The notes beneath the pieces are model-generated. The model worked only from the letters and a program-made list of their open reading frames with translations. It was not told the DNA's origin and did not search any database. Source: Bispira polyomma (taxonomy: Eukaryota). Taken from it: 64,000 nucleotides of DNA. Position numbers and translations under genes: made by a program. Below, in pieces: positions 13,642-56,477 of the stretch. The DNA is taken from the NCBI GenBank assembly GCA_965649765.1, contig OZ287752.1, positions 18,972,001 through 19,036,000 of the forward strand, in the 5' to 3' direction. Every line of letters starts with the position of its first letter. The stretch's first letter is position 1.

Positions 13642-14618
13642 TTAGAAAGTAGAGGAGACAATGGAGGAAAAAGTGGAGGGGATGATAGAGGCTGCGTGAG
13701 AGGTGGATTGTAAATATGACCAGACAGCATCGGATTTCCAGCACCCATGTTTTTGTATATCTTGAAGTTTGATATTAGAATTAAAGGCTAGAGAGGCTCC
13801 AGAGCGACGGAAGCAGTGAAATGAATGACCTATGTGTGGAATGTCAAGGTGAGTGAGGATGTTCTTGAGTGTAAGTCTAAGCTTGGTGTCTGATAAGCAG
13901 TTTCCTCTATCACACGGGTTGGCCAGTAATGGGGCCATGGAGTGTAAAGGGTATTTGTTAAATAAAGCTGTGGCAGCTCTGACAGGACATAGCCAGGGGT
14001 TTGATAAGGAAGGTAGTTGAATGATGTCTGGATTTGCCCTACTTTGGTTAGTTTTACTCCATTTAAGGATAAGGTGAATACCTGGTGGGGCGAATACTAT
14101 GTCTGCCCTTGTGAGGTGTCTTGTAGGGTCAAAAAGTGAACCGGAGGTAGTAGTAAGATTGGAAATTCTGAGGAACCCAAAGAAGGCGAAAAGAAAAGCT
14201 GTCCTGTATAGCTCAGGGAAATGAAGTAAATCACAGGCTTGTGAAATTTTTTCCAGTTGTAGTAAGTCAAACACTCCCTTTATTCTGGGGGTGTATTTAG
14301 AGGTGAGTTCTAAGGACCTAGTGTACAAGGTCAGTCTGGGGTCATAAAGACCTGTGTGTAGTATATTCAATAGTTTGGCATTGTGTCTTAGAGCTGATAT
14401 GTAATTTGCAATCACTTTGTGGGATTTCCCTGTTTGAGTCAGGAACTCTAGAAATGCCAAAATGGTGTTGAAACTGAAGGTATGATGTAGATCATAATAT
14501 ACAGTGAAGGCTAAAAAGAGTCTGAATTGGCTGTTGTATTGTCTCTGAGTTCTAGGTCTGTGGCTCTGTCGTAATCTTGTGAGGGCACCTTGGATCAGTG
14601 AATTTGAGTCAGAAGTGC
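13642..14618 (-). CDS. YR-1 tyrosine recombinase (frame open from the splice acceptor at 14619)
   Basis: Catalytic set R (FLRISNL), K (WSKT), HxxR (HCFRR), HGCW, Y (WSYL); the reading frame extends upstream of the called TTG start without an ATG. Confidence 0.93.
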
Positions 14619-14624
14619 CTGAAA

Positions 14625-17204: not shown

Positions 17205-17267
17205 ACGATAAACATGAGGTACATTGAAGTCACAACTGGTGGTGGTGGCTGTAGGCAGTTGGTGGTC

Positions 17268-18605: not shown

Positions 18606-18778
18606 TTTGACACTTAATCCAGGAGTAAAAGCACCACGGGTGAAACTATAATATGTCTATAATGGTTATGCACTAAAAACACGTAAAAACTAGATGTAAA
18701 ACGAGTGGGAACATACAATTTAACAAAGTTTTCCTCCCACAAACATTTAAAATCCAATATGGCCGCTTCTAGGCCCAC

Positions 18779-18998
18779 AAAAAGACGTGTTGCTTACTTA
18801 ACTTGCAACTTAATAATGCCTTTCTATGATAAAAGGGCGGCAAGGAGTTTACTCTGAAGGAAGGTGATTGGTTGCCTGGTTTAAATGACCTAAAGTCTGA
18901 TTGGGATAGCTAGGTAAACACTTCTTAAGGGGGGTTTTACAGTAAAGTATTCAATTTTTGCTACTGACTTGCCATGCTATACTAGCAGTGACATCAAC
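18779..18998 (-). repeat. YR-1 split direct repeat A1 (probable promoter: two CCAAT boxes, one GC box)
   Basis: Matches 13247-13466; contains gattgg twice and gggcgg. Confidence 0.9.
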
Positions 18999-21349: not shown

Positions 21350-22172
21350 AGGAGTTTGGGGATAGAGGAAGCAAAGGTAAGGGGGACTGTGGAGGCTGCC
21401 TGGGAAGTTTTCTGGAGGTATGTCCAAACAGCAAAAGATCTCCACAGGCCATGAGACATTATATTCTGTAATGAGACATTATTGTTGAAAGCAAATATTG
21501 CTCCAGAGCACCTAAAAGTGTGGAAGGTATGTGATTTCTGTGGAATGTTAGCGTGTGCAAGTACAGAAGCTAGAGCAGAGCGAATATATGTGTCTACTAT
21601 GGGTTCATGTGGCAGTGCCCCAGAAACGAATAAAGGATGAGTGTCTGGTAAGCTCCTTTAAGTTGATAAGTCTTGTTATGCTTTTACTGGACATAATTCT
21701 TTGTTTTCTAATAAAGGAATTTGTATGATGTGGGAAAATGAGAGTAAGAAGATGGCTCTATACAATATGGGATCATTTAGGGCATTGCAAGCCCTTGATA
21801 TAAGTAGTAAGTGTTGTATTTCGAAGATGCCTTTTGGTAGAGGTTTAAATTGGGAGTTGTAGGCTAAGCTGCGAACAAACATAGCTACAGTATTGTTCTC
21901 AAAAATGGTGATATCCAAATGATATCTTCTTGTCATGAATTTTATGCCAGCCAAGTAATTGTTAATTGCCCCTGTAGATGTACCATTCTGTACTAAATAT
22001 TCCATAAATGCTACCACCACATTAGTAGTGATAGTAGGCACCCCAGCAAAGCAGGTGAATGCTAAAAATGTTCTAAATTGTTGATTATATGCTGACATAG
22101 TCTTTGGTCGTAGTGCTGTGTTAATTCTTTCCCATGCTGAGCCCACAAGTTCCTGTGTAACCTGTGTAGAGC
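21350..22172 (-). pseudogene. YR-3 tyrosine recombinase (deleted and decayed)
   Basis: ORF 21676-22146 plus downstream HTFHTFRCSGA..HGLW..WTYL. Confidence 0.85.
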
Positions 22173-22898
22173 CTGAAATTAGACAAAAATGTCAAAGTTA
22201 AAGAAATTAAGTGGGACTTGTTGCCACACAAAATTCTCTCTTAACAAGATGCTTTGTTCCTTAGCTGAAACGTGTTCAGAGTAAATTCTAGATAATGCAT
22301 CTGCAATGCAGTTTTTCTTACCCTTAATGTGATCTATCTATAATGTGATATCGTATTCTGCTGTGAGTAACCATATATTTCTAAGGCATAAGGCTAAGAA
22401 TTCATCCTTAGTCTTACTAGTACCAACGACTAGTACCACCGCCATGTTGTCACAAAATATCTTAATAGTACTGTGCTTTCACTGTTCACCCCAGACTTTG
22501 AGAGCTATAAGAATGTTCAAGATCTCAATGTGTACAATGGTGAGAGTCTTATTATACACATTGTATAAAGGAGAGGCATAAACCTGCTGGTTATAAAAAC
22601 CCCCTATACCTGTTAAGCAGGCATCTATGTTTTCAATGTTGGTGTCAGTATTAAGTTTAGAATGAATGTATGTAATTCTGTTATAACGCTTAAGAAAGGT
22701 AATAAACCAGGTAATCTGCCTTCATAGCTGGAGCAATTTTTAAGCGTTTTCCTGAGTGTTACCATGAAATGCCATGATAAGTCTGTTATTAAAGGCCCTA
22801 GCAGGTTTAACTCATTTGTGTATATATAAGAGTTTGCCTAATAGTGATTGGAATTTACTGCGAGATATCCAGTGTTTGTTAAAGATGTCAATGCATAA

Positions 22899-24260
22899 CT
22901 AGTGAGTCTCTTCGATCTTTTCTCTAGTTATACTAATGGTTCCTGCAGTTATGTCAATATCTATGCCGAGACAAGTGACTTTAGTGTCAGGAACTGACAA
23001 TTTGTCAGCATTAAGGGGGAGTCTCAGTGATACGACTAAATCATGGAGATCTTGAAATGCTTTGTCTGCTGTGTTTTGATTTAATATGACAACGTAGTCG
23101 TCGATATAACAGAATACTTTGTGGTCAAGTTTTCCCATGGCATAAGCTATCATGTCGGAGCAATGCTGAAAAGCTGCAGAGCCGTGGACCCAGCCGAACG
23201 CAACCACTGGAGCCACATATTTTCCGCCTTCAAAACATATCCCTAGTTTTATAACGCCCACCGGATTAACACGCAAGTTTCTAAAAGCCCTAGAAACGTC
23301 CAACTTAAAGATTCTGAGATTCCTGGTAAAACATATTTGTTGTACTTTATCATCAATAGTAGGAAATTTTAAAGCAAATTGAATGCCAACAAAGAGTTGT
23401 TTGTTAACATTATCATTAAGCGACTGTCCCTGTGGGTGTGACAAGTTCAATATAACCCTACGTTTATTTAAGTCTTCAGGACAAGTGAGGAGGGGTGAAC
23501 AGTGATATAGGTTACTATGTACCTTAACTACTGGGTTCAACATGGCACCATTGACTTTTTCTTTCTGTAGATAGTGACTAACTTCAGACTTAAACTGTAG
23601 AGCTGAGTGATGATTTTTGGCTTCCTTCATCTTGAGTGATGTTGGGTCATTCAAGGAAAGAGCAAAGCCGAATTTCAGGTATTGTATGAGTAACCTATCT
23701 GGGTGATCCGCTAAAAGCTTTTCCCATTGTTCAATATTAAGGCCTGATATAAGAGGAATGCGTGCCCCTTTGTAATTAGAACAACCTGTGTCCCTAATAA
23801 TGCTGGCTAAATGTGCCATTTGTTCAACAGAAGAAATAGGGGCCCTATCTGGGCCTATGAAAGTAAAATTTGAGTCAGACAACATCAGGAAACCCTTATT
23901 TTTATCAGGTAAGTTTATGTCTGTAAGATCCTTATTGCCCTTAAAATCCTGTGTCTGAGTATCTAAGGGTTTTTCGCAGAAGTCGGTAAACGACACCAAG
24001 ACATTATCCTGTTGCATAGTTGATACTTTTGGTTCAGTTGCAGACTGACCAGCCAATGCTAACTGATCCTTCTCATCATTTCCTATCATTATGTCAATAA
24101 CATTAGTTATGAATTCTGTATGTGTACAACCATGACTATTAAGTGACGCCATGTCTTTCTGATAATTTTCAAAGACATCATGAGGGGTAATGTCCCCCTC
24201 AAAGTTAACACCAGAGTCGGCATGCACAAATTCTTGATAACCTTGAATATATGATATCAA
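22899..24260 (-). pseudogene. YR-3 reverse transcriptase (truncated)
   Basis: KLDVSRAFR, AFGW, YIDDY. Confidence 0.9.
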
Positions 24261-24335
24261 TACAGAGGTGTGAATAGCTTAAATTATAGTAATGGGACCC
24301 TCTGGTAAAACATCACATCTGATGTAGTCATAATT

Positions 24336-25270
24336 TTGGTTATCCTCATTGAAAGACTAAAAACCTGGTTTGGTCTTAAGGACTCTGTCTTAAAATGGTT
24401 TGTTTCCTACTTGACAGACAGGTACCAGTCTATTAAAATTGGCGATATTCTGTCTGACTTACAAGTGCTGAAATTCGGTGTGCTGCAAGGGTCTGTGCTT
24501 GGACCACTCCTATTTTCATTATATACTACACCCCTTAGCAAAATTATTTCCTCCTATTCTTCTCTAAAGTATCACTTCTATGCAGATGATACACAGATTT
24601 ACGTACACCTTACTCCTAACACATCAATCGGTGCCCTGGAAGTCCTTCACAAATGCTTAGCAGATGTTCAAAATTGGATGGCGCTAAATAAGCTCAAGCT
24701 GAATCCTGCTAAAACCGAATTCATACTGTTTGGGTCGGGCACTCAATGTGCTGAACTGTCAAATTCTTTTCCTGTAAATATTCTTGGGACACTGTTATCC
24801 CCAACTGATAAAGTGAGAAACCTGGGAGTTTTGTTTGACAGTGATATTTCATTATCCAGTCATATCCAATCAGTGTGTAAGTCATGCTTCATGGATCTCA
24901 GAGACCTTAGGAGAATCAGGAGGTACCTTCCAAAATCGGTTGCAATAACTGCAGCAAATGTCCTGGTTGGTAGCAGACTGGACTACTGCAATTCACTGTA
25001 TTGCAGCTTGACCAAAAAGGACCTAAAAAAATTGCAATGCATTCAGAACTCATTGGCATGTCTGGTCAGTTGTTCTGCTCAGCTTTCAAATGCTTCATCG
25101 ATTCTGAAGTTACTCCACTTTTGCAAATGATGCCCCTACCCTATGGAATAGTTTGCCTCAACACATTAGGACAGCTCCGTCCCTGTATTCCTTTCGGCGC
25201 ACTTTAAAGACCTATCTGTTCAATGATGCATTCCCTCCATAGTCTCTTTCCCATTCTCGGTGGACGCATT
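24336..25270 (+). mobile_element. 5'-truncated L2-clade LINE (RT C-terminal part)
   Basis: GVLQGSVLGPLLFSLYT, YADDTQIY, LKLNPAKTE, SRLDYCNSL. Confidence 0.92.
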
Positions 25271-37200: not shown

Positions 37201-40200
37201 GTTGTGTTTTTTTTTTGTTTTTTTTTAATGTTTCTTGGAACAAAACAAGTTAACAACTGTTTTGAATGATTTCGGTGGCTCAGATAATTGGAATTGCCAA
37301 TAAAATGTACTATTGCGACAAGGTTATGTTATTATCTATACTTTTGTTTTTTATTTTTTTTTTATTTTTTGTTGTGATCACTTATGTAATGGGTGGTTTT
37401 AAAATTGTTGTATTTTAAAAATTGGTTACTTTTTAACCCAACCTGTAAATACCTATATCTAACATGTATAGGAAAATAAATACCTCAAACCGTAGTTTCA
37501 TACATTTATACGTTATATAATAATTTATCACATTAACTTTTAACTTGACCTTCACATCTTCACCATAGGGGAACAGTCTCTGAAAAGAGCATTTTTGCCA
37601 ATACTCTGTATTGGCTGCGTCTTACAACCCTGTGGTAGGAGGTTGTTGGCTTCTTCTTGCCATGGCACTGAACCTGCTGGGATGCTGTTGTTATGCTTTA
37701 AATACAGCCTTTGCCTTTTTGCTAATACGGTCAGCCGGTTGCCATGTTGTGGATCCCCCAAGTCTACCATGTTTTTAGGATTCCTCAACCTTCCCCTGAT
37801 CAAACTGGTCACTGATGAGTGTGTTCCTGAGAACAGACTCATTGAAGATCTGGGCATCTAAACAGGACCCATTGCTTCCAAAATCCAGCCATACTTATAG
37901 TCCAAGTCCACTAAAGCCAGGAGAACCATCGAGTGAAACCCCTTGTAGTTGCAATAGATGGAACCACCCCCTGAAGGACACTAGATTGCCACAGGTTTTC
38001 TATCTATAGCAACATGGGTATAATGAAAGTTACAGCTATTGGAGAATCTCTAAGTCCCATTCGGCTGGTGTGGTTGGCAGGCGAATGACCTTGTGTATGT
38101 ACTCTACAACTACAGCATTACAGACTTCCTTCATAATTCCAGCAATAGTGTTGTGGGTCACGCTGAACCCATACATCAAACTGTAATAACTGTCACCTGT
38201 AGCTAAGTGACTCAAGGTGATTGCAAGTCTTCAGCCCACACTTATTGGTTTTCTGGCAAAGGAAACTTTCTTTGATATCAGTGGGCCAACCCTATTCGGT
38301 AGCTCTTGGAATGCTGGATCCGTCCTGCTGAAGTTTCTAAATGATGCAATGTCTTCTCTTTCCAGCTCTGCTATGAGGTGATCATACTGGCTAAAGATTG
38401 GCCCACAAATAAGCCATGGTCGAACCCAGCAGTTTCTTGGTCCACCTCTACATCCCCTATCTGTTGACCATCTTGCACAACAGTTAGTGCCAACATATCT
38501 GTCTCTAAGTCCATCAAAATTTTATTGTAGAACTCTACAGCAATCATAACACGTCATTGATCCAAGTTGTTGTAATAAATATTTTTTTGTTATTATTAAA
38601 TATATATATGTTCTCTCTCCAAAATTGCAATCATTAATGAGAAAAGTCTGTGAAATGGTGATTATTATATAGGTTTTCGAGATAGGTGCGTGAAAACGTC
38701 ACGGCAATGTTAGACAGCATTAAAATGGAAGTACTGTTTCGATCACCAACATATCTAGAAAGGAGATTCCGGAGATAAAACAAATGCATCGGTTCGACAT
38801 CGGTTGTTATACGGTACATCTCCAGATGAAACCGTGCAGAGCAAGATAGAATAATACATCATCCGGATAATTCGAGGAGTATTCGTTTTGTATACGGATC
38901 ATTAACAAATTGGCAACGGCTTGAAAAGGCAGACATTGTAACAGAAACGTATTGGATGTTAAAAATAGAACGGGGTAGAGTGAAAATAAACTAGATTTGA
39001 TCTGAGTTTATATACTTAGGGAAAGTCCGCAAGTAAAAGTATCAGTCAAAAGAAAGCTCCTGTATACATTGTTGCATCAAGCTATCTCGGATTTTTATAA
39101 ACAGGATGCTTGCAATACTTTGACAATCCACGAAATATAGGACTGTCATTATAACCAGTGAATTTCATAAGGATTTACAGTGTTTATTTTTCGTTTTCTT
39201 ACAGGATTTAACAGTACTCCTATATATAACTATGCAAACAGGAATAATGTTACAAGTTGACGATTGCCTGTCTGGCATTGGTAGCATTTCGGATAATAAA
39301 GTGTTTAAATATCCTTTACCCATATTTATGGCTTACACATTGCCAATTGTCTATTTTGAGATGGTAAGCGTTTTAATTTATTAAAAACTATGGGGTCACG
39401 AATGAAAAAATAAAAAAATTTAATTTTAATTTAATTAAAAGTTAATTCTGACAACATAGTTGTGGTGGCTGTTGTGCAGTCTCCCCAAACTAGAGATGAT
39501 TATTGGAGGTTTATGCCTTTATGTCATATATGGCAAATTTGAGCTGAAAAAATATTTAAATATCAGTCATATTCCAAGAAAGTAGAATTTTATTGCGGAC
39601 TCTCTATCACGATGGTTTGAATTGGAATATTAAGCAACACATATGAGTGACTTTATTACAGACAGCTTATTAATGTATGACATTCCCATTGACTTATTTA
39701 CTCTTGGCAGTTATATACAGAAAGAGTCAGAAAAAATCAGCTAGATTACTGGTGCCAGGTGCATTACGACATGTAGAACAGAGTCAGACACCACAAACAC
39801 AGAAAGAGTATGACAGCCAGTTTTGACATTTTCTGAGTTTCATAGTATACTATGACTTACAACAGACTTTCAGTTTTAACAGCATTATAGTTTTCTTTGA
39901 ATTTCTAACACAATCGGGAGTTTCAAACAGAGTTATCAATAATTATCTCTCAGCTTAAAGGCATAACACCAAGGTGTTAAATATTTATCATACAGGACTT
40001 TATGATCCCAGATTGTCCAGATTGTCCAGATCTCTAGAACTCATCTCAAAATACACACCAGTGTTCAAAAGGGTTTTTGATTTACACCAACTATTACAAA
40101 TTTCACATACTTGTGAACAATTTCAGTGTCCAGAATTGTTTAGAACAGCCTTTTTGTTTGCTTATTTCGTTTTCCTACGGATCTCAAACCTCAAACCTAC

Positions 40201-43200
40201 TTTAGGAAACTCCATTTGAGACACCTCACAAGGTCAGATGTATTATTTGAATCTCCAGGTATCCACTCAATATTAAAGTAAACAAAGACAAATCAAAATA
40301 GGATAAATCCAGATATAATTTAGTAACAATTGGGTATGTCCTGTCAGCACTGTCAGATCTCTAGGATCCATGTATCCTCTTTTGGCTAATCCTTTTGACA
40401 ACGGTAACTGTGAAGAAACAGCAAACTAAGGTCCACCCTAAAGCTCATACTCACACACCTTAATATACCAAGGGAATGTTAATCTTTTAAATGTTTTGGG
40501 CGCTCTGGCGTCTCTTTTGCTTTCAATTCTAACATGAAATTACAGCACATGCAAAAACATGGGTGCTGGAAGTCAGATGCCATTTGGTCTTACCTTCAAG
40601 CTACATTCCATGCAGCTTCCAACATTTCTACTACTTTTGCCTCTATTGTTTCTTCCAAATTCTAGTTTGGCTTTAGCATTTTAAACATTTTAGTATAGTT
40701 GTACATAGATGCTAAAGATATATAAATAAATATTCCCAAGCTGCATCTGATTTGTAGTTTTACATTTTCAACTTTTTTACCCTGTATCTTGCAGTATAGG
40801 CATATCTAAACATACCAACCACTTCATGTCATGCATTTGTTGCCCAAGGGCCATTATACTTTACTTTTAGTCTACCGTACTTACATCACACATAGCTATA
40901 ATTGGTTGTTTTACCATATTGCTAACTTTTGTGTGTATTATACTTAATTTATACTTGGCTATAATTCGTTGTTTAACCATATTGCTATTTGATAGGATTA
41001 TGATACTCTTAATCTTGTTATATTTATCCCTTTAGTATTATGAAGCCTAATGGCATTTTAAAATTTTTAGTATTTATATAAAATATTCTGTATAGTTGTA
41101 CGTAGAGGCTTAAGATATTTAAAAAAATATTCCCAAACTGCATCTGACTTATCACCTTTAAAAGTCATATACTTTAACATCAATTCACACAGGTCAACAA
41201 CTTTTGACCTCAACTTTTTCATTCACCATTTTAAACAGCTGAAAGAAAAACAAGAAACTAAACCCTTCCTTGCATTAGTTGGTAAAAATCCCACTTTGAT
41301 ATGATGCTTGCCTGAATGAATTTATGATGATTTCAAGAAAGTTTGTACTAGCTGGATATGCATCAATGATGTTTCAAAGAAACTAGACCTACTTGCTATA
41401 TCGAGAGGTCATTTATTTATTTTACATGTTCATATCTCATGAACTTCAACAAATATATACCATTATAGTGTCTAACTTACAGTATTATTTACTTAATGTC
41501 AGTTATTTTATTAATTCAATAGTTGTCAATATAAGTTTGTATTTTTCTAAATTGTAAAACATTCTATTTGACTGATATGAGATATAAAAACACATTTATA
41601 ACTCTATGTATATCTACTTACATTTAACAGTGTAATACTTAGTGTCTGAGTCTGAAGAGTAGCTGACTTGGTCTGTGTCTGAAGAAGTAGCTCTACAGTA
41701 AAACAGAAGCCTGTTGACTTCCCTCTCCATTGTAATTGTCTGTACCAAACTGTTCCTCATAGACTCCCCGACTTGTACTGTGTCTGTACCGTCTACTCTG
41801 TACAAACTGATCGCAGGTTCAGGGTTTCCGTTTGCTGTACATGTCAACTCTCTTGTCTCTCCTTCTTCTGGGTCTGGGCTGGAGTTTGCATTGATTGTTA
41901 CTGTATCTGATAAATCTAAAAGTTTTAAGCAATACAACTATTTACTTTTTGTGGTAGGAAAGGCAACACAATAGATTGAATAAAATTCCAACTATATCAT
42001 TAAGCAATAAAGTGAATCAAAGAATACTCTGGTTTGCTGCTGCACTGGAAGAAAACATCTCATTACAATATATGCCTAAAAAACACTACAGTCCTTCAGT
42101 CAGTGATATGGTTCACATATCCATAAACTTCAGAGTATCTAATTCATGTTTGCTGTATAATGTTAAAAAATCAACTTACACAATACACTAATCCTCAGCT
42201 TTTCAGATTCAACATCATATGTCCACCCTGAGTAGAGATAATTATCATCAGCTCTACAGTAAAACTGGGCACCATTATCATCTTTGTCAACAGTGAGTTG
42301 ATACTCTAGTGTTTTGGCAGTCACCTGTTCAAGATGTGTAGCTACTCCCTGTCTGTACAACCTCAGTCTACCTGCAGGATTACTGTCTACTTCACATGTC
42401 AAGGTTAACAGGGTATTCTCATTTACTGTTGAGGATAGAGAGGCTGTAGGTTTACTCACGGATGAGGGTATATCTGAAATTTAAATAGTACTTACCTGAA
42501 TAAGGCACAAGATTACCTTGAAAGCCATTAAAAACCTATTAGCAAAAAATATATAAAAGTTTGTCTGATGAGAAAAATATCTTTGGCTAAACTGATACAA
42601 ACATACACTCTCAAAATATGGTAATATAAACAGTTCATTGTAAGTCATTTACCCACAAATTATTGCTGTCAATTTGTAACTGTAATTACACCAGTGAGAC
42701 CCGGACTGATAATGAACAACAATATTTAACAGAATACAAATAAAGTCAATAGTGATACACTGTCAGCGGTAGTTTTATGAAGGGGCTACTGCAGTTGATG
42801 TTGTCTGCTAGACAGAAGTGAGTTTAAAGGGTTGGCCTGATGGATAAAAATGTAACTATCAGAATATGTTGGACATTTAGTTTGTAGCCAATTCTTTGCT
42901 GATTTCAGTCACTGTTTTACATACCGGACACTTAGGCAAGCATTGTATCATATTCGTCTACATTTATGTGGTATTAAAAGTGCTAATTATTTATTTTTTC
43001 CTGTGAAGACTATTATTTATTTGACAATAATCATTTTAAATGCTAAATTCTTGTCATGGGGTGATATAAGTGCAGTCATGCCTTTTTCCTACTCCAGAAA
43101 AGATAAACAGATACACCTCAGAAGAATGACGTAAGTATAGGGAAATTTTAAACAATATGTATACCACCTACCTGGTTTTTGGATGTGGTGACACCCATCC

Positions 43201-46200
43201 AGCTGAGTGTTGCAGGAAATTGAATAATACAATATCAATTGGTCTTGTTGTCAGTGTCATGAACAGATCGAATGCAGTAGTGTTGTAATTAAAATAGCTG
43301 AACTCATGGAATGGCATATTTCACAAAAAAACTCCTTTTCCAAGTTTACTAATTACTCATTCGTGCATGACCATTCAGCTACCCAATGCTCACATGATTC
43401 ACTCAGTACCCATTAGACAATTAAAATTACACACATTTGGAGTGTAGCTGTAAATTTAATCAGTTATTATAATATTGAAACAGGTGAAATACCTGAGTTT
43501 GGTTAGACATATTTTGATCTTGGTAAATGCATTTCTAAATTTAGTTTAATCTGGTTTTTTTTGTGGCCAATCAGTAAATTTCATTTGAACTGTGGCTTCC
43601 ATTAATCACAAATATTAAAAATGACAAAGCTTTGATCTTGGAACACAGGCCAAGTAAATTTAATTATTTTGTCAGTGTTGAGTGTAAACAAAATACTCGG
43701 TTATGATATTACAAGTGAACACTGGACTAGTATATGGAATAATGACTGCAATGAAATATTATATATTGCCTTTGTGGCTATGCCCAACATAATCAGTTAA
43801 TAATTTGTTAAAAGGGTAAATTGGAATGGAGATGCAGATTTGGGAGCCTCATAACATTGAGTGGTACCATTTATTGTCGCCAGTCTCTTTTGCTTATGAT
43901 CCTAGTATATTATTTATCACATTTTAACGAAGAAAGAGATAAGATGTGAGATGTAGCAAATAATAGAGGTTTATTTTTACCAGATAAAACGGTGACTTGA
44001 GGCAGCAGTCTCAGTCCAGTCACAACTTTCATCATATAGAGCCAGAGAAAAGCTACTAAGAACTTTACCTGTTTATTCTGTATCATTTAAAAAAATAACA
44101 AACAAACAACACCATTGGTCTAATTATATAAACTTACATGTGATTGGTTAGGGTGAAAATTTGTCACAAGGCTTTGGGGGCTTCTTTGCCGTTACAAAGA
44201 AAAAGTTGAACTAACAACATTGGAAAGCTTACATTGTTACACCCACTACAATCCTGTGTATATATAATTATCTTTTATATATTCACCTGTAGTACTGCAG
44301 TTTCAGATTGTGTGTGGTTGAGGAAATGGTGAGAGCAACATTATGGAGCTTGGTCACCACTGGTGATTTGCAAGTGGAGTTGTGAACCTCTGACTATCAT
44401 TCAAGCAAGGATTATGATGCATGAGCACGGAACTATAAAGCTGCCTAGTAATATTATTGCTAAATGTATGTTATAATAATGTGCATGTCTTACTAATCTA
44501 ACCTAACAGTTCACCATATCTTTAATTCAACGCTAATGGACTGTATTGCTCAGTTATTTAAAGGTACATACTATGAGATTGATAGAGATGTAGGTTATTT
44601 ACAGCCAGATGTTTTAAAGTGAGATCTCCAACATGCAACTGTAGGTAAATTCGCTCAATGTAATGACATGCTTTACATAATTTTAGTCATAGATTTAAAT
44701 GTTTTTAAAATGTAACCTTTATCTATATACATATTTACATCTTTACATAGATTATTCACTAATGTTTTTACATGTTCTAAAGCTGTTGTATTTTTATACT
44801 ACACTAATACATATTTACCTTCTCTTAAAAATACATATATATTTGTTATTGCAATAGAAAAGACAATATTGTACTTATATATATACGTATATTGTCATCA
44901 AGTGAAACCACAAACTACTCCTATAATGCATAAAGCATGTGTGTTAAGTATAGGTATAAGGTAACCTTAAAGCTGCAGGCTGTTAATATTATTCATTATT
45001 ATAACTCAATCAAAACTAACAAATGTGTAATATTTTCATAAGTTAACTCAAAACGTAAAATTTTAATTGAAGCTTGGTTGACTTAAGCTAACACTTAAAC
45101 TGGTTGTGAAAATAAATGTAGAACTTAGTGTAGTAAATAAATGTAGATATATATCTTCATTCTTGTGCATCACTCACATCTCTTGTCATGAACTGGACTG
45201 CATTCAAAATTGGCGAATAAAAGATACAGTTCCTCGGAGTAGTGCCTGAGGAAACTCAATTAACCGAACAAGTCATAGAAAGACAATACTGCGGTTAAAT
45301 ATATTTATTTCATATTTACAGCTACTATTACTAAGATATTTATGTACAGTTCTTTGACATGATATGCACTTTGAGTGAGCATAAGGTCCCCTTAAGTCAA
45401 CTGAGTTTAGGACTTTAGGTTAAACCAGAATGAGTTTAAGTCACCCTAACTAAGAAAGAAGTTGACTTTAGAAATTTAGATTTAAGTTGAAACTTAGATA
45501 TGACTTTGAAGATTAACAAATTAAAGTTTGACTTAGGTTTTAAGTGGAACTTTAATTACATGAGTACAATATGTACTTTAATAATACAGGGGGACCTTAT
45601 GCCCACAGTTAATTCATTTAGTTTACAGGTAATTAATATGCTACTTGCACTGTTAAACTGACTAGATCTTACAGTGATGCCACCAAACCCCAAAATTTTA
45701 GTAGGTATTTTGTAGAATAGTTTTGAAGGAATCGGCAACTTGAGTACCAGCATTGGCAGAATCCGAAATGTAACGCCAGACGCAATCGGACGTCCAGGTG
45801 CCGTGCCTTTGGATGTCCTGAATGGTGACATTATTGTTAAAGGCAAAGGTGGCACCTGAACGCCTGAAAGCGTGAAAGGTCAAGCCAGAGTACTGCGGGC
45901 CCAGCATTAGTAAGACATTCTTAAGATGCCTCCGAACCCTAGTATCAGTAAGGGGCAACCAAATGGCATTCTGCTTAAATTGAAACAAGGGCAGATCTTT
46001 CCCTTTAGGAGAAATAGCCAAACAGTTTTTTAAAGCTTGCACCGGACATAAGATGGAATTGGTTAAAGCTGGTATGGTGAGCAAGCGAACGGCATTATTG
46101 TTTTGAAGGGTTTTAGACCATTTAATAATGAGGACAGCGTACCCTGGCTTGAAAAGAACATCAGCCCTTGCAAGCTGCTTAAGAGGAGAGTAAGCAGCAA

Positions 46201-49200
46201 CCGAATGAGCACAGAGGTTAGACAGCCTCAGAAAGGAAAAGAAACTGGTAAGATAGACTGCTTTAAAAATTTGACCCATGTAAGTACTGTTGCACTTTAT
46301 AATAAGAGACCTTAACAACTGAACATCGAAAATTGACTTAAGTTTTACTTGCAACGGTCTATGCATCCCCAAAGCTTTATTATAATAGGTAATTCTTTTA
46401 TCAGAAAAAACATCTACGGATATATGGAAGAGGACACACTTAGCCTTAATGGCAGAAAGATGATTAAGAACTTGACTAGCCGACACACCATTAAACGTTA
46501 AAAACTCTAAATAAGCTAAGAGATATAACACAGTCACCTTTTGAGGAGGCCAAGACATAAAGGCTCCAACCGCCAAGAACAGCCTGAACATTCTGTTGTA
46601 GGCTCTGTTAGTGGCAGGGGTGAAGGCAAGTACAAGTCTGTCACAAGCTTTCTGCATCAAGGAGATGGCCACAGGTTGTATATCTAGAAAACATGACTAA
46701 CATGTGCTATATAAGTGAGTTAACTTTTAATAAACTGCGGCAAGCAGGCAGCCACTGGACAGGCCCAGCTAACCTAAATAACGACAAATGGTCGGCTTCA
46801 GTTTCCTTCCATCTTGACAGCAAATCTGCAATTTTATTTTCTTTACCCAAAATATGTACGACAACAATATCAATACTAAACTTGCTAGCTAACATGTATA
46901 TGTTCCTAGAATACGTGGCTAATTCGGGATCTCTGGTGCGCCCTGTCTGTAAGACACTTACAACTGCCTGATTATCACATCTGACCAATATTCTACGACC
47001 TTTCCATTTATGAACCCACAATTTTAGAGCTACCAAGATGTTAAGCATCTCCAAAGAAGCAATATTGACCTCAGTCATTTCTGGAGGAATGTTAATTTGG
47101 TACACTTGTTTCTCAAAAATACCCCCCATTCCAGTAAGGCAGGCATCCAATTCAATCTCACCAGTTATGGGCTTAGGCATGAAAAAAGAGACTCCATTGA
47201 AGTGTTCTGCAAAAGTAGTAAACCAATTCAAGTCACGCCTGAATTCAGGGGTGATGGCGATATACTTTCTGGTGTAATTATCTCGTAACAGCTCCAGCAT
47301 CCTATTCAAAAAGACCCGAGCATACTTTACACATTTAGAGATATATAATAACAAGCCAAGTAAAGACTGGAGCTCTCTCTTAGTGCAGAATTTTTTGGAT
47401 TTCCATTCGTGACACTTATCTTTAATTTGACTTAATTTCTCACCCGGGATGGAAGTAGTACCTAGAATGGTATCCACTACTATGCCCAGGCAGACGACCT
47501 GCGTGCTGGGAGGAACCAATTTTTTCTGACTTACTGTCAACCCCAACTCTTGTAGCAGTTCTTGCAATCTGAGGAAAGTTTTTTGAATTTTGCTGGGAAC
47601 AGAAATAGCCAAGAAATCGTCGATGTAGTTGTGGACATTATGATTTTCAGAGTGCATTATGAATCGCACGGCATCCGAAATTCTCTGAAAAATCGTGCTA
47701 CCATTACGATATCCGAACGGCAGAGATCTGTCCACATAATAGGACTTCCACTTTAGACCTAGGAGGTCAACGTCGCCAGGGTCAATGGGTACGTGGCGGA
47801 ACGCCCTACTTATATCGACCTTGAATATCTCACATCCTCTCCCCAATTTTACCACCTCACTAGTGAGATTATCAATGGACGGATAAGACAGTAGAAATTC
47901 AACGCCCAAGTAAGAGGAAGGAGAAGCTCCCGCATTAACCGACCCCCCTTGAGGCCAACTCAAGTCTACAATTACTCTCCGGTTAATTGAGTTCGGTTTG
48001 TGTCTCGTCATAAGGGGAGAACAGTGCAGGCCCGGAAGAGGAGGTTTGTCAAATGGCCCTAACATGGCGCCGAACTCACATTCTTCTTTCATATAAGCCT
48101 CTACATGCTGTGGATATTCCTCAGCCGACTTATGGTTACTCTCACTGGATTCCAATTTTACTGAATGATCGACGTCCAGGGGAAATCCATATTTTATGAG
48201 GAGAGGCAATTGCCAATCCCAGTAATTTTTGAGGTATTTTTTCCAACTCTCGGGTCTTAATTGAGAGGGAACAGGGATTTGCAACCCTTCATAATTATGC
48301 CTGCCGTCAGCCCGAATTAAGTCATGCATTTGCAAAATGGAAAGTTCGGGCCCTCCCTCACCCTGATCTGCCATCTCACAGCCCAGAGCAGAGAGAGGAG
48401 TGAATCCATATGCATGTTGGGTTTGGGCTTGCCATTTTCTGTAAGTAGGATTTGAGGCAGCCTTAGCTAACATGCCTTTCTTATTTACTTTCTGTTTCAA
48501 GGCACAAGAGTACTTATCGGGACATTCGAGACTTTCCGGGCTATCTTCGGAAGCAGTTTTACTCCTGCCCTCGCCTCGGTCAACGGGCTTGTCACTAGGG
48601 CCAGAAAGGAATCGAACGGGCTCGTCCACATTTTCACCGTCATCGACCGACAGCGACACTAAAGCTGTATACCTGTTAGCAAGAGGGAGGACAGCCACAC
48701 CCCCATTGACCCGCCTCTCTTCGCCCCCATTCAACCTCGAGCACTTGACCTCCTTTGTTATCACCTTGCCTTGTTTCGCACCCCGGCCTGGCTTCACAAT
48801 GGAAGTCCATTGTCCCACAGAGGTACCAAGGGGCCTCAACAATGTGTCACTTTTGCCACGTAATATGTCTACCTTACTCTTGTCAACCCTTGCCTGTTTT
48901 ACCGGCACCTCATTAGCACTTCTATTTACACACCCATACTTTTGAACTGGGCCATTCTTTTGCAACGCCTGGCTATAACTCAAGTCTGGCCTAGTGCCCT
49001 TCACATATTTACACGTTTTTCGCCACACAGACCTCTCAAATAATTGTGCACTCTTAAATTCAGTATTATAAACAAACCTACATTTGTGCTTCCCACTTTT
49101 AGCCACTGCATTAACGCAGTGGCCCCTCAGTTTTTTGCCCCTTTCTTATGACATTCACTAGTCTGGTGGCTACCCTCACATGTCTCGCAATGATGTTTAT

Positions 49201-52200
49201 ATAACTGACCTCCAGTATTGTGAGAGCTGGGAAAACGACAATTTCCTTCCTGATAAAAGCGACAAGACATTGCACCCTTACGACGTACAGACCTACTGCT
49301 ACTCGAGTTACTTGGCCGTCCATTCGCCCCAGAGGAATTTCTACTGTTCGACACATGGCGCTGAGCATGGGCTCTTCGGATTCGATCCATCTTATCTACC
49401 TCTAGCCACCCCAACTTATCCATCTCCATACTTGTCTATACGACTGCATGGCAGGCCTTAGCTGACTCCCAAGAAAAATCCTGGGCATCCTCCATAAGAC
49501 CCCCCATGTAATCCAGCATGGCATTCTTCACTTCGATCGACTTCTCCTCGTGGGCAATCCGAGCGAAACCACACACCCATTGCAACACGGTTAACTCATC
49601 GTAGCTAGGCCGAGACTTAGAACTACCCGTGAGCACATAGTTTTGAGGCCAGGCGGTGACCTTTCTTACCAACACCTCATTCGCCCCACTACGCTGGGAC
49701 TTCAGTTTACCTTGCGAGGTGGTCTCATTCAACGTCTTGAGATCTTTCAATCTCTGCTCCACTTGGAGCTGTATTAGGGCATTCTGGTTTAAAAAATCTA
49801 TGCCAGGAATTATACTGTCGGACGTAGCGATAGATGGGCTCTTACCTACGCCAGCAGAGCAACTAGCAGGCCTGTCAACACTAGAACTAATCAAACTACT
49901 ACTTGCCTGAACGGGGACCTGATGACTGGGCTGACTACTGGTGAGGTTCGTCGCCAATGCGGCCTCATTCCTCTGAACCCGCTGGTCCATTTTTACCATT
50001 AACTCGTTCATCGAGTGCAGTTGGAGTAATATCGCGTTCGTAACTGCATCGCCAGACTCACCGTTTGCGGGTTCAGTGTCAGAGGCAGCATCGATCTCCT
50101 CCCCAGAGGCAGAGTCAACGGTTGCAATAACGCAATTTCGCCCTACAGGACGCTCATGTTTGGTTAAACATCGACTACACTCATAGACAGGCATAACTAA
50201 AAGGTGTTTCCACTAAAATACTGTAAAATATAAAACATATACACCACCAACAAAATGGCACCCAAACAAATTTTAAACTAGTTGTTGCTCTGCTGACGAA
50301 CGATAAAGGCGGGAGATTTTGAAAAGGAGAGCCTTATATAGTCGTACACCATCCCATAATAGTAGACCAGGCTGGTACCCCAGAACTGAGGCCACGAACG
50401 CTGAGGGCGTTCGCTTACACAATGAGTGGGAAGTGTTGTGAAAGTATCTGTATTGTACGGAAAAACTTTCGTTTGTCCATCACATTACAATAACAATTTG
50501 GAGTAACTGAAAGCCTTAGTTTACTGTTCATCATTTTTGTTTGTAAAATGCCCAAAATTTAACAACTCACACCTTTTTGAAGGTATTAGTGAGGCAATAT
50601 ATTCACCAATAATGACAAAATGTGTTTGATGTGCAATTTATAACATGTCATTTGTAAACGTAATCATATATGTCTATTGAATTGTAATTATGTTTGGATA
50701 TATGTACAAGTTTGTTTTCAAGTATGTGGTGAAAGTTATCAATATCAAAAATCACTAATTTTGTTACAGTTAAGTTATAATTAGAAAAACCCAAACGGGG
50801 GAGGAGTGTGTATTGCTAACAGTATTTATTAGTTAAGATTTACCTGCATTGTCATTACTATATTAAATAGTACATTGATACATTTACACTGCTTTGTTCT
50901 TTATTGTCCTGACTGTTTTAGATAGAACTTGTTGTCAAGTTTTGAATACAGATGACTTTAAAAATATTTATTTCGCCTCAGATAGGAAAGCAGTGTACAT
51001 TAATAAAAATACTAATAGACAAGTAATACAGGTTAATGGCATACTTACAGTACACATCCAGGGTTTTAGTGTTTGATGTTTTCACTATTTCTATTGCTCC
51101 TTCACCCCAGGTCAGTTGACACTGTACTCCTTGGCCTTGCTGACCACGGTTAAAGCTCAGTGTCTGTGTATAAGTCACTGTATAGGTCACCCCATTACTC
51201 TCTTCACTCTCTGTCTCATCACCTCCACTGTTGTACTCATTCCCTACTTGTACTATAAAATCGGTTTCCCCTTTACCTGGATAGATGGAGGACACTCTAC
51301 ACTGGATAGATTTGGTTACACCCTCAATTACAATACCTATAGTAGTAAGGCTCACAGAATCTGGAGCATCTGGAAACAGAAAAACAATGGTATCATTCTT
51401 GTCTCAATATTTGCAAGCAAATAGAACACTACATCATTGGGACAACTTAACAAAAAAAGTCTACAGTCGCCAGTTACAGTCACAGTTTCTTGGAGCCAAA
51501 TTGATGGCTGGCAGTATCTGACAGAACTACTCACAGCATAGTTACAGTGAGGTAAAAGCAATTGACCTTTTAAGTTTTATTTTGCTTCTGAATTAAAAAG
51601 ATAGTGTCGTAATAATTTATGTGTGAAATATAATTGTGTATATATAAAAGGATTGATCTGCTTACTTACCATCAAGATATAAATTCTATTTTGATAGAGT
51701 TTGATAGAATTAAAACATAAGTATTACCCCAGACAATCAAATAAAATCTGTGCAACCTTTGTGAATCTATTAGCAATGACATTAACTTTTAACTATGATA
51801 AGTTAAATAAGTGTGTTATCTCAGTAGCCAATGATGAGTAACATATAATAAATATTTCTTCATTTTTTTTCTCTATTCTGATCAAAAAGTATAAATACGT
51901 GAGATTGGGAGAACGAAAAAGACTATGGCAATAGACGGCTCCGAATGACGAAAGTCAACAAAGAAAAGTTCTGCAAAAGGGAAAGGTAGTAAGGTATCAA
52001 ACATTCCTATAGATGATAGCATTGTTACCGACCTGAGAGGCACATTCAAACGAATTTTACAATACCGACGTTCTGACTAGTAACCCAAAGCGAACAAGGA
52101 CTATACATACATCAATGATACAACAAGTACTGCTGTCACTTGGGAATGTCTTCTCATTGCCTCGGGAGGTCGTTCGTACGGCCTGGGCATTAAAGATGAC

Positions 52201-55200: not shown

Positions 55201-56477
55201 GTCCAAATTATTATTAGTGAAAGGTTCCCCGCCATTACTGTGTACACCACATCAGTGCCTGTAACACCACCAGTCAAAATATATGCTCATTATGTGTGTA
55301 ATCAAGGTGTATGTATGCATATGTTGATAGTCGTGTGCTATGCACTGTAAAACAGATGATTTCATAAAAAGTAAAACCCAAAGTGGTATGCATTGCCATT
55401 GAACAGCATTATTTTTTAATAATGTAGTATTAGAAAATAATGGTAGCGTTTTTCTACCATTGAATGAAGTAAATATTTAAAGAACCATTAATAATTTAAT
55501 TCCAATTTTCATTTAAAAATATTGCTTTAGTTAAGTTGGGTTTTATAATAAACACCTCGTGGCACTTACATTATGTAACGTAATGGATACTCGAGCCTAA
55601 AGACCCTTATACTCCATTAAGTTTACATAATGTAGTGCCACTTGGTGTTTATCTATATAATAATGTGTACCCACAGATATTACAACATTACAATGTAACA
55701 ATAAAACATGGGATTATGTATGATGACATTGTGAATTTACATTGTTGAGTGATATACTAATAAGGATACTGTTTTATAAAACACATTACAGAATAAGAAT
55801 AACAACAAGAGCTAGCGTACCCCATATTTTCCCAGTCACATCCAACACATCACCTCCTTCTTGTAGGTCACTAGTCTGTACTACACATTGATACTGTACA
55901 CCATCAGTCAGAATATCCACATCATTTACAGTCAGCCTGTGTTCTGTACCACTGAACTCATACTCTACATCTCTCCCAATGAACTCATTCTGCAATTGAC
56001 TTCTGTCCTGTGGTCTGTAATAACTAAACACACGACTTAAAGTAGCTTCATTATACCAGTCTAGTTTTCTGATGTCACTTTTAGGTAAACCAGAATCACA
56101 AACTAAGGTCATTGAGTCTCCGTGTAAGATGTAAAAAATAAAGCCAGAACTGTATGGACTTTCAAGGTGAGTACTCACTGATACTTCTGCATATACAACT
56201 GACCTCTCTGAAATGACAAGTTTATGTGGAGACATCAAGTATATGTGCTGGCTTCACTGTATAAATGTATGTGTTGAATAATTCATCGAATAAGACATAA
56301 TTGATCGTACACAAACAATATGTGCTAAAATGTTTACCAATCTTAAAATTAACAGTAATAAATGAAACACACTTTGAGATATGTTATCAATTATATGTTC
56401 AAATATATTAATTACTCACCACTGACAAGCGTAAGCAAAAACACCCACTGCACAATCATCGGATAAAGAGTATTCAT
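28254..56477 (-). CDS. Paralog 2, intact nephrin/sidestep-like type I receptor: SP, 7 Ig, FN3, divergent FN3-like domain, TM, Tyr-motif tail (1035 aa)
   Basis: Exons 56420-56477 (MNTLYPMIVQWVFLLTLVS), 55821-56207, 51049-51369, 42180-42473, 41622-41915, 32795-33091, 31304-31579, 30506-30814, 30107-30403, 29732-30004, 29466-29620 (TM), 28470-28589, 28254-28280. All nine extracellular domain exons are phase 1-1 with lengths divisible by 3, there are no internal stops, and the total is 3108 nt. Confidence 0.85.
28573..28940. repeat. 123-bp tandem repeat x3 spanning a splice acceptor
   Basis: Units start at 28573, 28696 and 28819 and are nearly identical. Confidence 0.95.
30982..31080 (-). repeat. 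Partial duplicate of the acceptor and 5' end of exon 30506-30814
   Basis: ggcctttact.tacaatttagtaaggc..tagatgaactaacatcaa.tggtgaaact. Confidence 0.85.
32560..32850 (-). repeat. Degenerate ~75-bp tandem copies of an Ig exon 3' end and splice donor
   Basis: actta(c/t)atctaacatccagt-type unit four times; only the exon copy keeps the GT. Confidence 0.75.
35360..36010 (+). pseudogene. Harbinger accessory (Myb/MADF-like) ORF remnant
   Basis: Position and convergent orientation relative to the transposase; acidic low-complexity middle region; DNA-binding domain largely deleted. Confidence 0.5.
36505..36760. repeat. Dispersed repeat, copy 2 (see 12080-12325)
   Basis: Shared sequence blocks. Confidence 0.7.
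37560..38560 (-). pseudogene. Harbinger/HARBI1-like transposase, frameshifted
   Basis: WVRPWL..YDHLIAELEREDIASFRNFSR..LAITLSHLATGDSYYSLMYGF..AGSVPWQ. Confidence 0.85.
45698..46683 (-). CDS. YR-2 tyrosine recombinase
   Basis: FLRLSNL, WSKT, HAFRR, HGTW, WRYI. Confidence 0.95.
46707..49106 (-). CDS. YR-2 reverse transcriptase + RNase H (in the -1 frame relative to gag)
   Basis: KVDISRAFR, LPFG, YIDDF, DACLTG, SLEM, CDN, IADLLSR. Confidence 0.95.
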   Translation of the reverse strand: MAKSGKHKCRFVYNTEFKSAQLFERSVWRKTCKYVKGTRPDLSYSQALQKNGPVQKYGCVNRSANEVPVKQARVDKSKVDILRGKSDTLLRPLGTSVGQWTSIVKPGRGAKQGKVITKEVKCSRLNGGEERRVNGGVAVLPLANRYTALVSLSVDDGENVDEPVRFLSGPSDKPVDRGEGRSKTASEDSPESLECPDKYSCALKQKVNKKGMLAKAASNPTYRKWQAQTQHAYGFTPLSALGCEMADQGEGGPELSILQMHDLIRADGRHNYEGLQIPVPSQLRPESWKKYLKNYWDWQLPLLIKYGFPLDVDHSVKLESSESNHKSAEEYPQHVEAYMKEECEFGAMLGPFDKPPLPGLHCSPLMTRHKPNSINRRVIVDLSWPQGGSVNAGASPSSYLGVEFLLSYPSIDNLTSEVVKLGRGCEIFKVDISRAFRHVPIDPGDVDLLGLKWKSYYVDRSLPFGYRNGSTIFQRISDAVRFIMHSENHNVHNYIDDFLAISVPSKIQKTFLRLQELLQELGLTVSQKKLVPPSTQVVCLGIVVDTILGTTSIPGEKLSQIKDKCHEWKSKKFCTKRELQSLLGLLLYISKCVKYARVFLNRMLELLRDNYTRKYIAITPEFRRDLNWFTTFAEHFNGVSFFMPKPITGEIELDACLTGMGGIFEKQVYQINIPPEMTEVNIASLEMLNILVALKLWVHKWKGRRILVRCDNQAVVSVLQTGRTRDPELATYSRNIYMLASKFSIDIVVVHILGKENKIADLLSRWKETEADHLSLFRLAGPVQWLPACRSLLKVNSLI
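49127..50194 (-). CDS. YR-2 Gag-like ORF1; nonsense TAG at 49436-49438
   Basis: CSRCLTKHERPVGRNC N-terminal finger; CRFYQEGNCRFPSSH / HHCETCEGSH C-terminal fingers; two in-frame ORFs. Confidence 0.85.
50270..50345 (-). promoter_or_regulatory. Putative YR-2 core promoter (TATA box, downstream YY1-like motif)
   Basis: TATATAAG on the minus strand at ~50333-50340, ~140 nt before the gag ATG; caaaatggc at 50271, with a similar caatatggc in the YR-1 leader at ~18755. Confidence 0.45.
53150..53570 (+). mobile_element. Highly decayed YR-element Pol fragment (relative of YR-3)
   Basis: FLALS..NFNFMDPD..IIRDTGCPNYKG..NFGLPL..NSAIQ matches YR-3 FLMLSDSNFTFIGPD..IIRDTGCSNYKG. Confidence 0.75.
55548..55652. 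repeat. Foldback/MITE-like palindrome (~105 bp)
   Basis: ataaacacc..gtggcacttacattatgtaa..aatgga pairs with tccatt..ttacataatgtagtgccac..ggtgtttat. Confidence 0.85.

What the first reader, a model, noticed from the sequence alone, without database searches (positions are those of the whole stretch)
49101..49136. Textbook -1 ribosomal frameshift signal joining gag and pol in YR-2
Seen in the sequence: gag ends GCA AAA AAC TGA. The heptamer A_AAA_AAC (49136-49130) is followed 5 nt later by a 10-bp stem GGCCACTGCG-ttaa-TGCAGTGGCT (49124-49101). Pol is in the -1 frame, open through the site, and has no nearby ATG. Established: X_XXY_YYZ plus a 5-9 nt spacer plus a stem-loop is the retroviral frameshift architecture, and A_AAA_AAC is used at HTLV/MMTV gag-pro. 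The route of Pol expression in YR retrotransposons is poorly defined.
Basis: partly seen in the sequence, partly recalled or inferred. Interest (0 to 1): 0.8.

Follow-up and report, generated by a model that had tools for sequence, protein, structure and literature searches.

The report
Conserved frameshift signal in recombinase retrotransposons
A large group of jumping genes in this animal genome keeps the same slippery sequence and hairpin-forming palindrome exactly where the gene for the structural protein ends and the enzyme gene begins one base out of step, so ribosomes likely slip back one base there to make the reverse transcriptase, a retrovirus-style trick for which I found no defined signal reported in this class of elements.

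Summary
Confirmed and much wider than one copy. A_AAA_AAC (49136-49130, minus strand) ends gag of a Ngaro-like tyrosine-recombinase (YR) retrotransposon; pol opens in the -1 frame three codons earlier. The exact signal occurs 1188 times in the genome (control 0) and in 23 of 27 gag-selected families down to about 35% Gag identity. A distant subclade moves the stop one codon, keeps the 7-nt spacer and swaps the outer C-G pair to G-C. A conserved domain follows in the -1 frame at 13 different, all in-frame distances, partly upstream of any ATG, with dN/dS below 1. Proteins from other assemblies show the same junction. -1 ribosomal frameshifting is very likely but unmeasured; no RNA data. This copy has a private premature gag stop. 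Sister clades instead have gag-UAG-pol in frame, and YR likely comes from splicing. The scan's index returned no earlier YR heptamer-stem finding, only splicing and readthrough notes from other genomes. Textbook mechanism, apparently first defined signal for this class.

The parts
45226..50421 (-). YR retrotransposon copy (A1 - gag - pol - YR - B1); lacks the A2-spacer-B2 tail of full copies
   Evidence: Shared boundaries with 91-99% identical copies; full copies L272-L275 carry A2 and B2
50269..50421 (-). Split direct repeat A1 (153 bp)
   Evidence: Repeated right after B1 in full copies
45226..45692 (-). Split direct repeat B1 (about 466 bp)
   Evidence: Second copy downstream of A2 in 4 of 4 full copies fetched
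49127..50194 (-). gag-like ORF1 with C-terminal Cys/His fingers, ending K-N-stop
   Evidence: open 361-362 codon frame in most close copies; weak CCCH finger match below cut-off
49436..49438 (-). Premature in-frame stop in gag, private to this copy
   Evidence: absent in 29 of 29 other copies
49130..49136 (-). Slippery heptamer A_AAA_AAC in the gag frame
   Evidence: conserved in 160 of 173 gag-selected loci by exact match (130+29+1)
49123..49129 (-). 7-nt spacer containing the gag stop; sequence varies, length fixed
   Evidence: stop sits at spacer 1-3 in one subclade and 4-6 in the other
49103..49122 (-). Conserved hairpin CCACTGC-N6-GCAGTGG (predicted 3' stimulator); extends to 49124/49101 in this subfamily
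   Evidence: six inner pairs never vary, outer pair C-G or G-C
46707..49145 (-). pol ORF (-1 frame): N-terminal region, reverse transcriptase, RNase H; no methyltransferase or protease match
   Evidence: Pfam RVT_1 E 6.7e-11, RVT_3 E 2.2e-5
48963..49079 (-). Conserved small domain at the start of pol (R-x-V/F-Y ... SYS-x-A/V-L), read in the -1 frame
   Evidence: Found in the -1 frame in 24 of 29 clusters at 13 different codon offsets; dN/dS 0.03-0.48 within family A
48471..48473 (-). First in-frame ATG of pol in this subfamily (codon 221 from the heptamer)
49705..49711 (-). Predicted phase-1 splice donor inside gag (AAG|GTAAAC)
   Evidence: AG|GTA or GG|GTA at this Gly codon in 21 of 21 family representatives where the motif was located, 8 of 29 not located
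46683..46697 (-). Predicted phase-1 splice acceptor for the YR exon (TTTTCTAG|AT), 23 nt after the pol stop
45698..46696 (-). Tyrosine recombinase ORF3, not overlapping pol in this family
   Evidence: PHROG integrase E 2.4e-9; H-x-x-R and terminal Tyr visible in the translation

Best explanation
The heptamer, 7-nt spacer and hairpin-forming palindrome at the gag-pol junction are conserved across this retrotransposon clade and likely form a programmed -1 ribosomal frameshift signal that makes a Gag-Pol fusion. Shown by sequence: gag ends A_AAA_AAC-stop, pol overlaps it by only a few codons in the -1 frame, spacing is fixed, the stem is conserved, and the -1 frame is under coding constraint from the site onward. 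Inferred: ribosomes with AAA in the P site and AAC in the A site pause at the hairpin, a minority slip back one base and read ...K-N/K-L-R-G-H-C-x-x-A-V into Pol, while the rest stop and release Gag, setting the Gag:Pol ratio; with no protease in the element, the fusion would stay uncut unless a host protease acts. The six inner pairs probably never vary because each wobble position pairs with a non-synonymous position of the H-C-x-x-A-V motif, so structure plus protein lock the sequence (inference).
For: Exact AAAAAAC-N8-CACTGC-N6-GCAGTG: 1188 genome matches, reversed control 0; these are 1188 of all 1436 such palindromes. Motif-blind sample chosen by Gag protein: 129 of 172 copies and 23 of 27 families carry it exactly; the 4 without are single copies, 3 of which keep the heptamer. 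Distant subclade (Gag 33-39% identical, RT about 50%) has A_AAA_AAC-GAN-stop-GGCACTGC-N6-GCAGTGCC: stop moved, spacer kept, outer pair swapped. On 25 representatives 93% of cells pair, 3 of 9 pairs have two-sided changes, covariation score above 500 of 500 shuffles and above all slid controls. Conserved Cys/His codons in the Gag fingers just upstream mix C and T at third positions in the same representatives. Downstream domain in the -1 frame in 24 of 29 clusters at 13 distinct offsets ((1/3)^12 about 2e-6 if independent). dN/dS for codons 12-220 is 0.45-0.55 between subfamilies (Fisher p 0.0007 and 0.01), and 0.03 for codons 12-39, upstream of any ATG, in L089/L094 (p 0.0005). Other assemblies: 56 of 98 Gag homologues end KN or KN+1 residue, the residue before KN can have an NNA codon in 54 of 56 (background 65%); 3 predicted proteins read K-K-R-x-x-H-C-x-x-A-V and 1 reads the +1 translation of the hairpin. 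Deletions of 10-80 nt cluster at the hairpin: 10 of 56 start within positions +8 to +15 (p about 1e-7 after correction), a hint that the hairpin forms in nucleic acid.
Against: No translation or RNA data. Covariation is thin: six pairs never vary and so say nothing, and the C-G/G-C swap is one event between two subclades. The 25-28 representatives were picked among copies with the exact motif, so their invariance is partly by construction; the unbiased figures are 129 of 172 and 23 of 27. The hairpin is small (-10 to -21 kcal/mol across families) and no pseudoknot is supported (mean loop helix 4.2 vs 4.2 in shuffles), so efficiency could be low. Many families have an in-frame ATG at codon 32-49. 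dN/dS for codons 12-39 is not significant in every pair (p 0.03, 0.08). The single metagenomic relative L271 (Gag 26% identical, outside the clade) has no heptamer or stem. The window's own copy is defective upstream.
Confidence: 0.88

Rival explanations
1. Pol is made from a spliced mRNA: the phase-1 donor in gag is joined to the invariant GCAG|TG in the 3' arm of the stem, which is also phase 1 in the pol frame; C-T-R-A upstream would be the branch point.
For: The element probably uses splicing for YR; the GCAG is phase 1 in all 25 representatives; unchecked scan notes describe YR elements in other genomes that reach pol by phase-1 splicing.
Against: Poor acceptor: mean 2.9 T and 5.6 pyrimidines in 12 nt against 6.6 and 8.2 for the YR acceptors of the same elements; a competing AG lies within 18 nt upstream in 21 of 25 (13 of 32 for YR acceptors). 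It explains neither the heptamer, nor the 5' arm, nor the covarying outer pair; the T-R-A is displaced in the second subclade.
Confidence: 0.05
2. Pol is translated separately from an internal ATG (reinitiation after the gag stop, leaky scanning or a subgenomic RNA), and the hairpin aids that or terminates Gag.
For: An in-frame ATG lies at codon 38-44 in most families of the first subclade.
Against: The young subfamily of the window has no ATG until codon 221 yet has intact 805-codon frames in 99% identical copies; first ATG ranges from codon 3 to 341 among families; the conserved R-x-V/F-Y motif (codons 17-22) lies upstream of the ATG and shows dN/dS below 1; a slippery heptamer would not be needed.
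Confidence: 0.03
3. The palindrome is a sequence-specific binding site (for the recombinase on DNA, or for Gag or a host protein on RNA for packaging or priming), and its position next to the heptamer serves that, not frameshift stimulation; frameshifting, if any, depends on the heptamer alone.
For: Six pairs are invariant across RTs only about 50% identical while the central 6 nt vary freely, the look of a dimer site with 6-bp spacer (analogy recalled from XerCD/dif, not tested). The readthrough clade has a similar GACTG..CAGTC hairpin after its UAG in a different reading phase.
Against: Fixed 7-nt distance to the heptamer even when the stop codon moves; outer and loop-closing pairs covary as expected for a helix; the palindrome was not seen at the element's ends, where recombination happens; dual coding can explain the invariance. 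Not exclusive with the best explanation.
Confidence: 0.04

Closest known systems
Deltaretrovirus gag-pro -1 frameshift (HTLV-1, HTLV-2, BLV): A_AAA_AAC with a simple stem-loop
   Same: Same heptamer, 6-7 nt spacer, simple stem-loop as generally believed (PMC3835772 passages and table; PMC12789967 passage); joins the structural gene to the enzyme gene.
   Different: Here the element has no protease match and inserts by a tyrosine recombinase; the gag stop lies inside the spacer; the stem sequence is locked across very divergent families.
MMTV gag-pro and astrovirus ORF1a/1b -1 frameshifts
   Same: A_AAA_AAC with 6-8 nt spacer (PMC3835772).
   Different: MMTV uses a pseudoknot; none is supported here.
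-1 gag-pol frameshifts of animal LTR retrotransposons (28 of 51 surveyed had pol in -1, as reviewed in PMC5009743)
   Same: Pol in the -1 frame with a classical heptamer (passage).
   Different: Those are integrase-encoding LTR elements; the held first 300,000 of 449,034 characters of that review contain no mention of DIRS, Ngaro or tyrosine recombinase.
Ngaro-like YR retrotransposons (order DIRS)
   Same: A1-ORFs-B1-A2-B2 split direct repeats, gag / RT-RH / YR order, no methyltransferase (definitions in PMC9210276, PMC4157794, PMC8547959).
   Different: A spacer of about 730 bp separates A2 and B2. Poulter and Butler 2015, quoted second-hand in PMC13003380, thought the YR ORF is probably reached by frameshifting at the pol/YR overlap; here pol and YR are in varying frames and often do not overlap, and the frameshift signal is at gag/pol.

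Membership tests
Programmed -1 ribosomal frameshift signal (retroviral type) | X_XXY_YYZ heptamer phased to the upstream ORF | tested here: met
   in the gag frame in 28 of 30 cluster representatives (two broken copies out of frame)
Programmed -1 ribosomal frameshift signal (retroviral type) | Downstream ORF in the -1 frame, open through the site | tested here: met
Programmed -1 ribosomal frameshift signal (retroviral type) | 3' RNA structure 5-9 nt downstream | tested here: met
   Predicted hairpin at a fixed 7 nt; structure not probed experimentally; covariation from few events
Programmed -1 ribosomal frameshift signal (retroviral type) | Selection keeps the signal and the -1 frame without a dedicated start codon | tested here: met
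Programmed -1 ribosomal frameshift signal (retroviral type) | Measured frameshifting and trans-frame product | not testable with these tools
   Needs reporter assay, ribosome profiling or mass spectrometry
Pseudoknot-stimulated frameshift (MMTV type) | Loop pairs with downstream sequence | tested here: not met
   Loop-downstream helix no longer than in shuffles over 45 nt in 25 representatives; loop sequence unconserved
Ngaro-like YR retrotransposon | Split direct repeats A1-ORFs-B1-A2-B2 | tested here: met
   4 of 4 full copies fetched; the window copy itself has only A1 and B1
Ngaro-like YR retrotransposon | gag, RT/RNase H, YR on one strand in that order | tested here: met
Ngaro-like YR retrotransposon | No methyltransferase domain | tested here: met
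   Pol ends just after RNase H; no MT family at E up to 0.1
Ngaro-like YR retrotransposon | RT groups with named Ngaro references rather than PAT or DIRS1 | not tested
   No named reference sequences were obtained; the tree holds only unnamed elements; MT loss in PAT is known (PMC4157794)
DIRS1-like element | Inverted terminal repeats with internal complementary region | tested here: not met
   No terminal inverted repeat; direct repeats instead

The most novel reading that the evidence does not exclude
The invariant CACTGC-N6-GCAGTG hairpin is not just a thermodynamic roadblock but a protein-recognised switch: the element's own zinc-finger Gag (or a host protein) binds it and tunes -1 frameshifting, giving a protease-less retrotransposon feedback control of its Gag:Pol ratio, within a superfamily that in one animal genome uses all three retroviral routes (-1 frameshift, UAG readthrough, splicing).
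Probability: 0.12. Interest if true: 0.85.

Novelty: new member of a known kind. Interest (0 to 1): 0.6.

Why it matters
How YR (DIRS-order) retrotransposons express reverse transcriptase and recombinase is largely unexamined: the papers I could read describe ORF overlaps or guess at frameshifts without naming a signal. This gives an exact, 34-nt, directly testable signal shared by over a thousand copies and dozens of families, and with the side findings a complete expression model (Gag; Gag-Pol by recoding; Gag N-terminus-YR by splicing). It would extend retrovirus-style gag-pol recoding to a protease-less, integrase-less lineage, correct the annotation of these ORFs, and supply a natural series of minimal frameshift hairpins.

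Tried and rejected
RNA evidence: no RNA holder listed; three runs of unrecorded kind laid as contigs showed no joint at the predicted splice sites and are uninformative. Other-species DNA: metagenome scan gave 1 distant locus, viral contigs none; search for longer Gag fusions found none among 7999 candidates, weak evidence. Rfam: no match near any gathering score. PDB: no match for YR; Pfam misses the YR at cut-off. Pseudoknot rejected. Inverted terminal repeats rejected. Readthrough of the window's premature gag stop as a programmed feature rejected: private to this copy. Frameshift at pol/YR rejected for this clade: frame relation is 0, +1 or -1 depending on family (6, 8, 18 of 32 distinct acceptor contexts). 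Papers not held: Poulter and Butler 2015, a 2003 survey of gag-pol recoding (id recalled), Goodwin and Poulter 2004; they, and Repbase entries, may already mention this signal.

Full report
Observation. Pol is in the -1 frame, opens at 49145 and runs 812 codons, with RT and RNase H matches; a tyrosine recombinase ORF follows. The 40 nt after the heptamer fold into a 9-bp hairpin, z -4.8, 0 of 200 shuffles as stable. Among 706 slippery-type heptamers in the window this site has the strongest downstream hairpin. The window's gag has a premature stop at 49438-49436 that 29 of 29 other close copies lack, so this copy is defective while the family is not.

The element. Copies share ends at 50421 and 45226. 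Four of four longer copies fetched are A1 (153 bp) - ORFs - B1 (about 466 bp) - A2 - about 730 bp - B2; the window copy stops after B1, as B1 x B2 recombination would leave it (inference). Split direct repeats, ORF order and lack of a methyltransferase fit Ngaro-like elements as defined in PMC9210276, PMC4157794 (passages) and PMC8547959 (section 11). I did not place it among named references.

Conservation in the genome. I collected loci by Gag protein similarity, not by the motif: 176 loci, partly the top hits and partly hand-picked, favouring long open gag frames, from four searches listing 150, 150, 150 and 121 matches. Three lacked the gag end; 130 had exact heptamer and stem at the standard spacing, 29 heptamer only, 8 stem only, 4 neither, 2 at other spacings, one of them mis-anchored. 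After dropping one duplicate, 129 of 172 copies and 23 of 27 motif-blind clusters carry the exact signal; the four clusters without are single copies (two with one substitution in the stem, two with deletions). Genome-wide the pattern AAAAAAC-N8-CACTGC-N6-GCAGTG has 1188 matches against 0 for the reversed control, out of 1436 such palindromes in all (control 103).

What is conserved. A second subclade (Gag 33-39% identical, RT about 50%) reads A_AAA_AAC-GAN-stop-GGCACTGC-N6-GCAGTGCC: the stop has moved by one codon, the spacer length has not, and the outer pair is G-C instead of C-G. The two subclades form one group in an RT tree of 28 rows (98/97), apart from the readthrough clade. On 25 representatives, chosen among exact-motif copies, 93% of cells pair and 3 of 9 pairs have two-sided changes, above 500 of 500 shuffles for the covariation score (87 of 500 for the count of pairs) and above all slid controls; RNAalifold finds the same helix. 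This covariation rests on few events, and six pairs never vary. Conserved Cys and His in the Gag fingers just upstream use mixed codons in the same representatives, so protein constraint alone would not fix the stem codons. In the pol frame the stem reads H-C-x-x-A-V and each wobble base pairs with a non-synonymous base, which would lock the sequence if both protein and helix are selected (inference). No pseudoknot is supported.

Translation begins at the site, not at an ATG. A small conserved domain follows the stem in the -1 frame in 24 of 29 clusters (3 in another frame, all clusters of one or two decayed copies; 2 not found), at 13 different codon offsets from 50 to 92. The first ATG lies anywhere from codon 3 to 341; many families have one at codon 32-49, but the window's subfamily has none before 221, and the R-x-V/F-Y motif lies upstream of it. 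Between subfamilies dN/dS is 0.45-0.55 for codons 12-220 and 0.03-0.48 for codons 12-39, against 0.04-0.09 in RT; Fisher p 0.0007 and 0.01 for the long region, 0.0005, 0.03 and 0.08 for three short-region pairs.

Other assemblies. Of 98 Gag homologues (none above 58% identity; one of them, P0046, matches this genome at only about 53%), 56 end KN or KN plus one residue, and the residue before KN admits an NNA codon in 54 of 56 against a background of 65%; these proteins are related and not independent. Three predicted proteins run into K-K-R-x-x-H-C-x-x-A-V and one into the +1 reading of the hairpin. No DNA of these was available. One metagenomic relative outside the clade lacks the signal.

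Hairpin deletions. Of 56 deletions of 10-80 nt found in 145 copy-to-relative alignments over 700 nt, 10 start at positions +8 to +15 with different end points, consistent with a hairpin forming during replication or reverse transcription; it does not show function in translation.

Mechanism. Most ribosomes would stop at the gag stop; a minority, slowed by the hairpin with A_AAA_AAC in the P and A sites, would slip back one base and make Gag-Pol. Shown: anatomy, conservation, frame constraint. Inferred: slippage, its rate, the hairpin's role. Rivals: a splice into the GCAG of the stem, which is in phase but a poor acceptor; an internal ATG; a protein-binding palindrome. None explains heptamer, spacing and pairing together.

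Context. The other two YR elements in the window belong to clades with gag and pol in one frame separated by UAG: CAA-TAG in 28 of 30 close and 16 of 20 more distant loci for the element at 13645-18656, and TAG in 4 relatives with long frames among 19 examined for the element at 21367-24278. YR itself likely comes from splicing: a phase-1 donor in gag and a phase-1 acceptor after the pol stop (71 of 108 loci phase 1, 25 none at the cut-off, 12 other phase), with pol/YR frame relation varying.

What is known. A_AAA_AAC with a 6-8 nt spacer is used by MMTV, HTLV, BLV and astroviruses, deltaretroviruses with simple stem-loops (PMC3835772 and PMC12789967, passages). For YR elements, nine full-text searches and passage look-ups in PMC3266345, PMC3783388, PMC6681497, PMC8547959, PMC9004415, PMC7192593, PMC9210276, PMC4157794, PMC5009743 (first two thirds held) and a Chlamydomonas preprint found no gag-pol slippery site or stimulator. 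The nearest statement is a second-hand quote of Poulter and Butler 2015 that the Ngaro YR ORF is probably reached by programmed frameshifts (PMC13003380). That review and Goodwin and Poulter 2004 were not held and, as I recall without being able to check, may extend the guess to gag/pol; no supplements were read. Scan notes from other genomes describe splicing and readthrough in YR elements and one likely fungal frameshift, none a heptamer-stem signal; they are unchecked.

Verdict. Real, strongly conserved, very likely a functional -1 frameshift signal (0.88). The mechanism is textbook; its definition in YR retrotransposons appears new and is directly testable. Interest 0.6; new member of a known kind.

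Noticed in passing
window 17268-17273 (minus), element 13645-18998: The other full YR element has gag and pol in one frame separated by CAA-TAG, kept in 28 of 30 close and 16 of 20 distant loci, usually followed about 7 nt later by GACTG-N4-CAG(T/A)C: candidate stop-codon readthrough clade.
   Followed up: partly
window 49711/49710 and 46684/46683 (minus): Conserved phase-1 splice donor inside gag and phase-1 acceptor just after the pol stop would give a Gag N-terminus-YR fusion; same signals in the other YR clades and in L271. No RNA evidence.
   Followed up: partly
window 21367-24278 (minus); L299, L301, L303, L304: Third, 5'-broken YR element; relatives with long frames show gag-TAG-pol in frame. 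A LINE-like RT fragment on the plus strand (24309-25127) interrupts it (by translation only).
   Followed up: partly
window 50221-50240 (minus): Pyrimidine-rich stretch ending TTTTACAG just upstream of the gag ATG: possible acceptor of a 5' leader intron.
   Followed up: no
L083, L175, L207, L210, L220, L224, L231, L288, L291, L108: Independent deletions removing part or all of the hairpin; in L083 this puts pol in frame behind the gag stop.
   Followed up: partly
window 45226 and 50421; L081-L099: Element ends overlap a TG dinucleotide with no target-site duplication; many copies have lost A2-spacer-B2.
   Followed up: partly
window 39064-40662 (plus): Decayed fragments of a fourth YR element (RNase H and YR matches at 27-33%).
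   Followed up: no
window 42163-42480, 50978-51403, 55789-56253 (minus): Host exons that look like immunoglobulin domains flank the element, which seems to sit in an intron; duplicated blocks about 33.8 kb apart suggest a tandem gene array.
   Followed up: no
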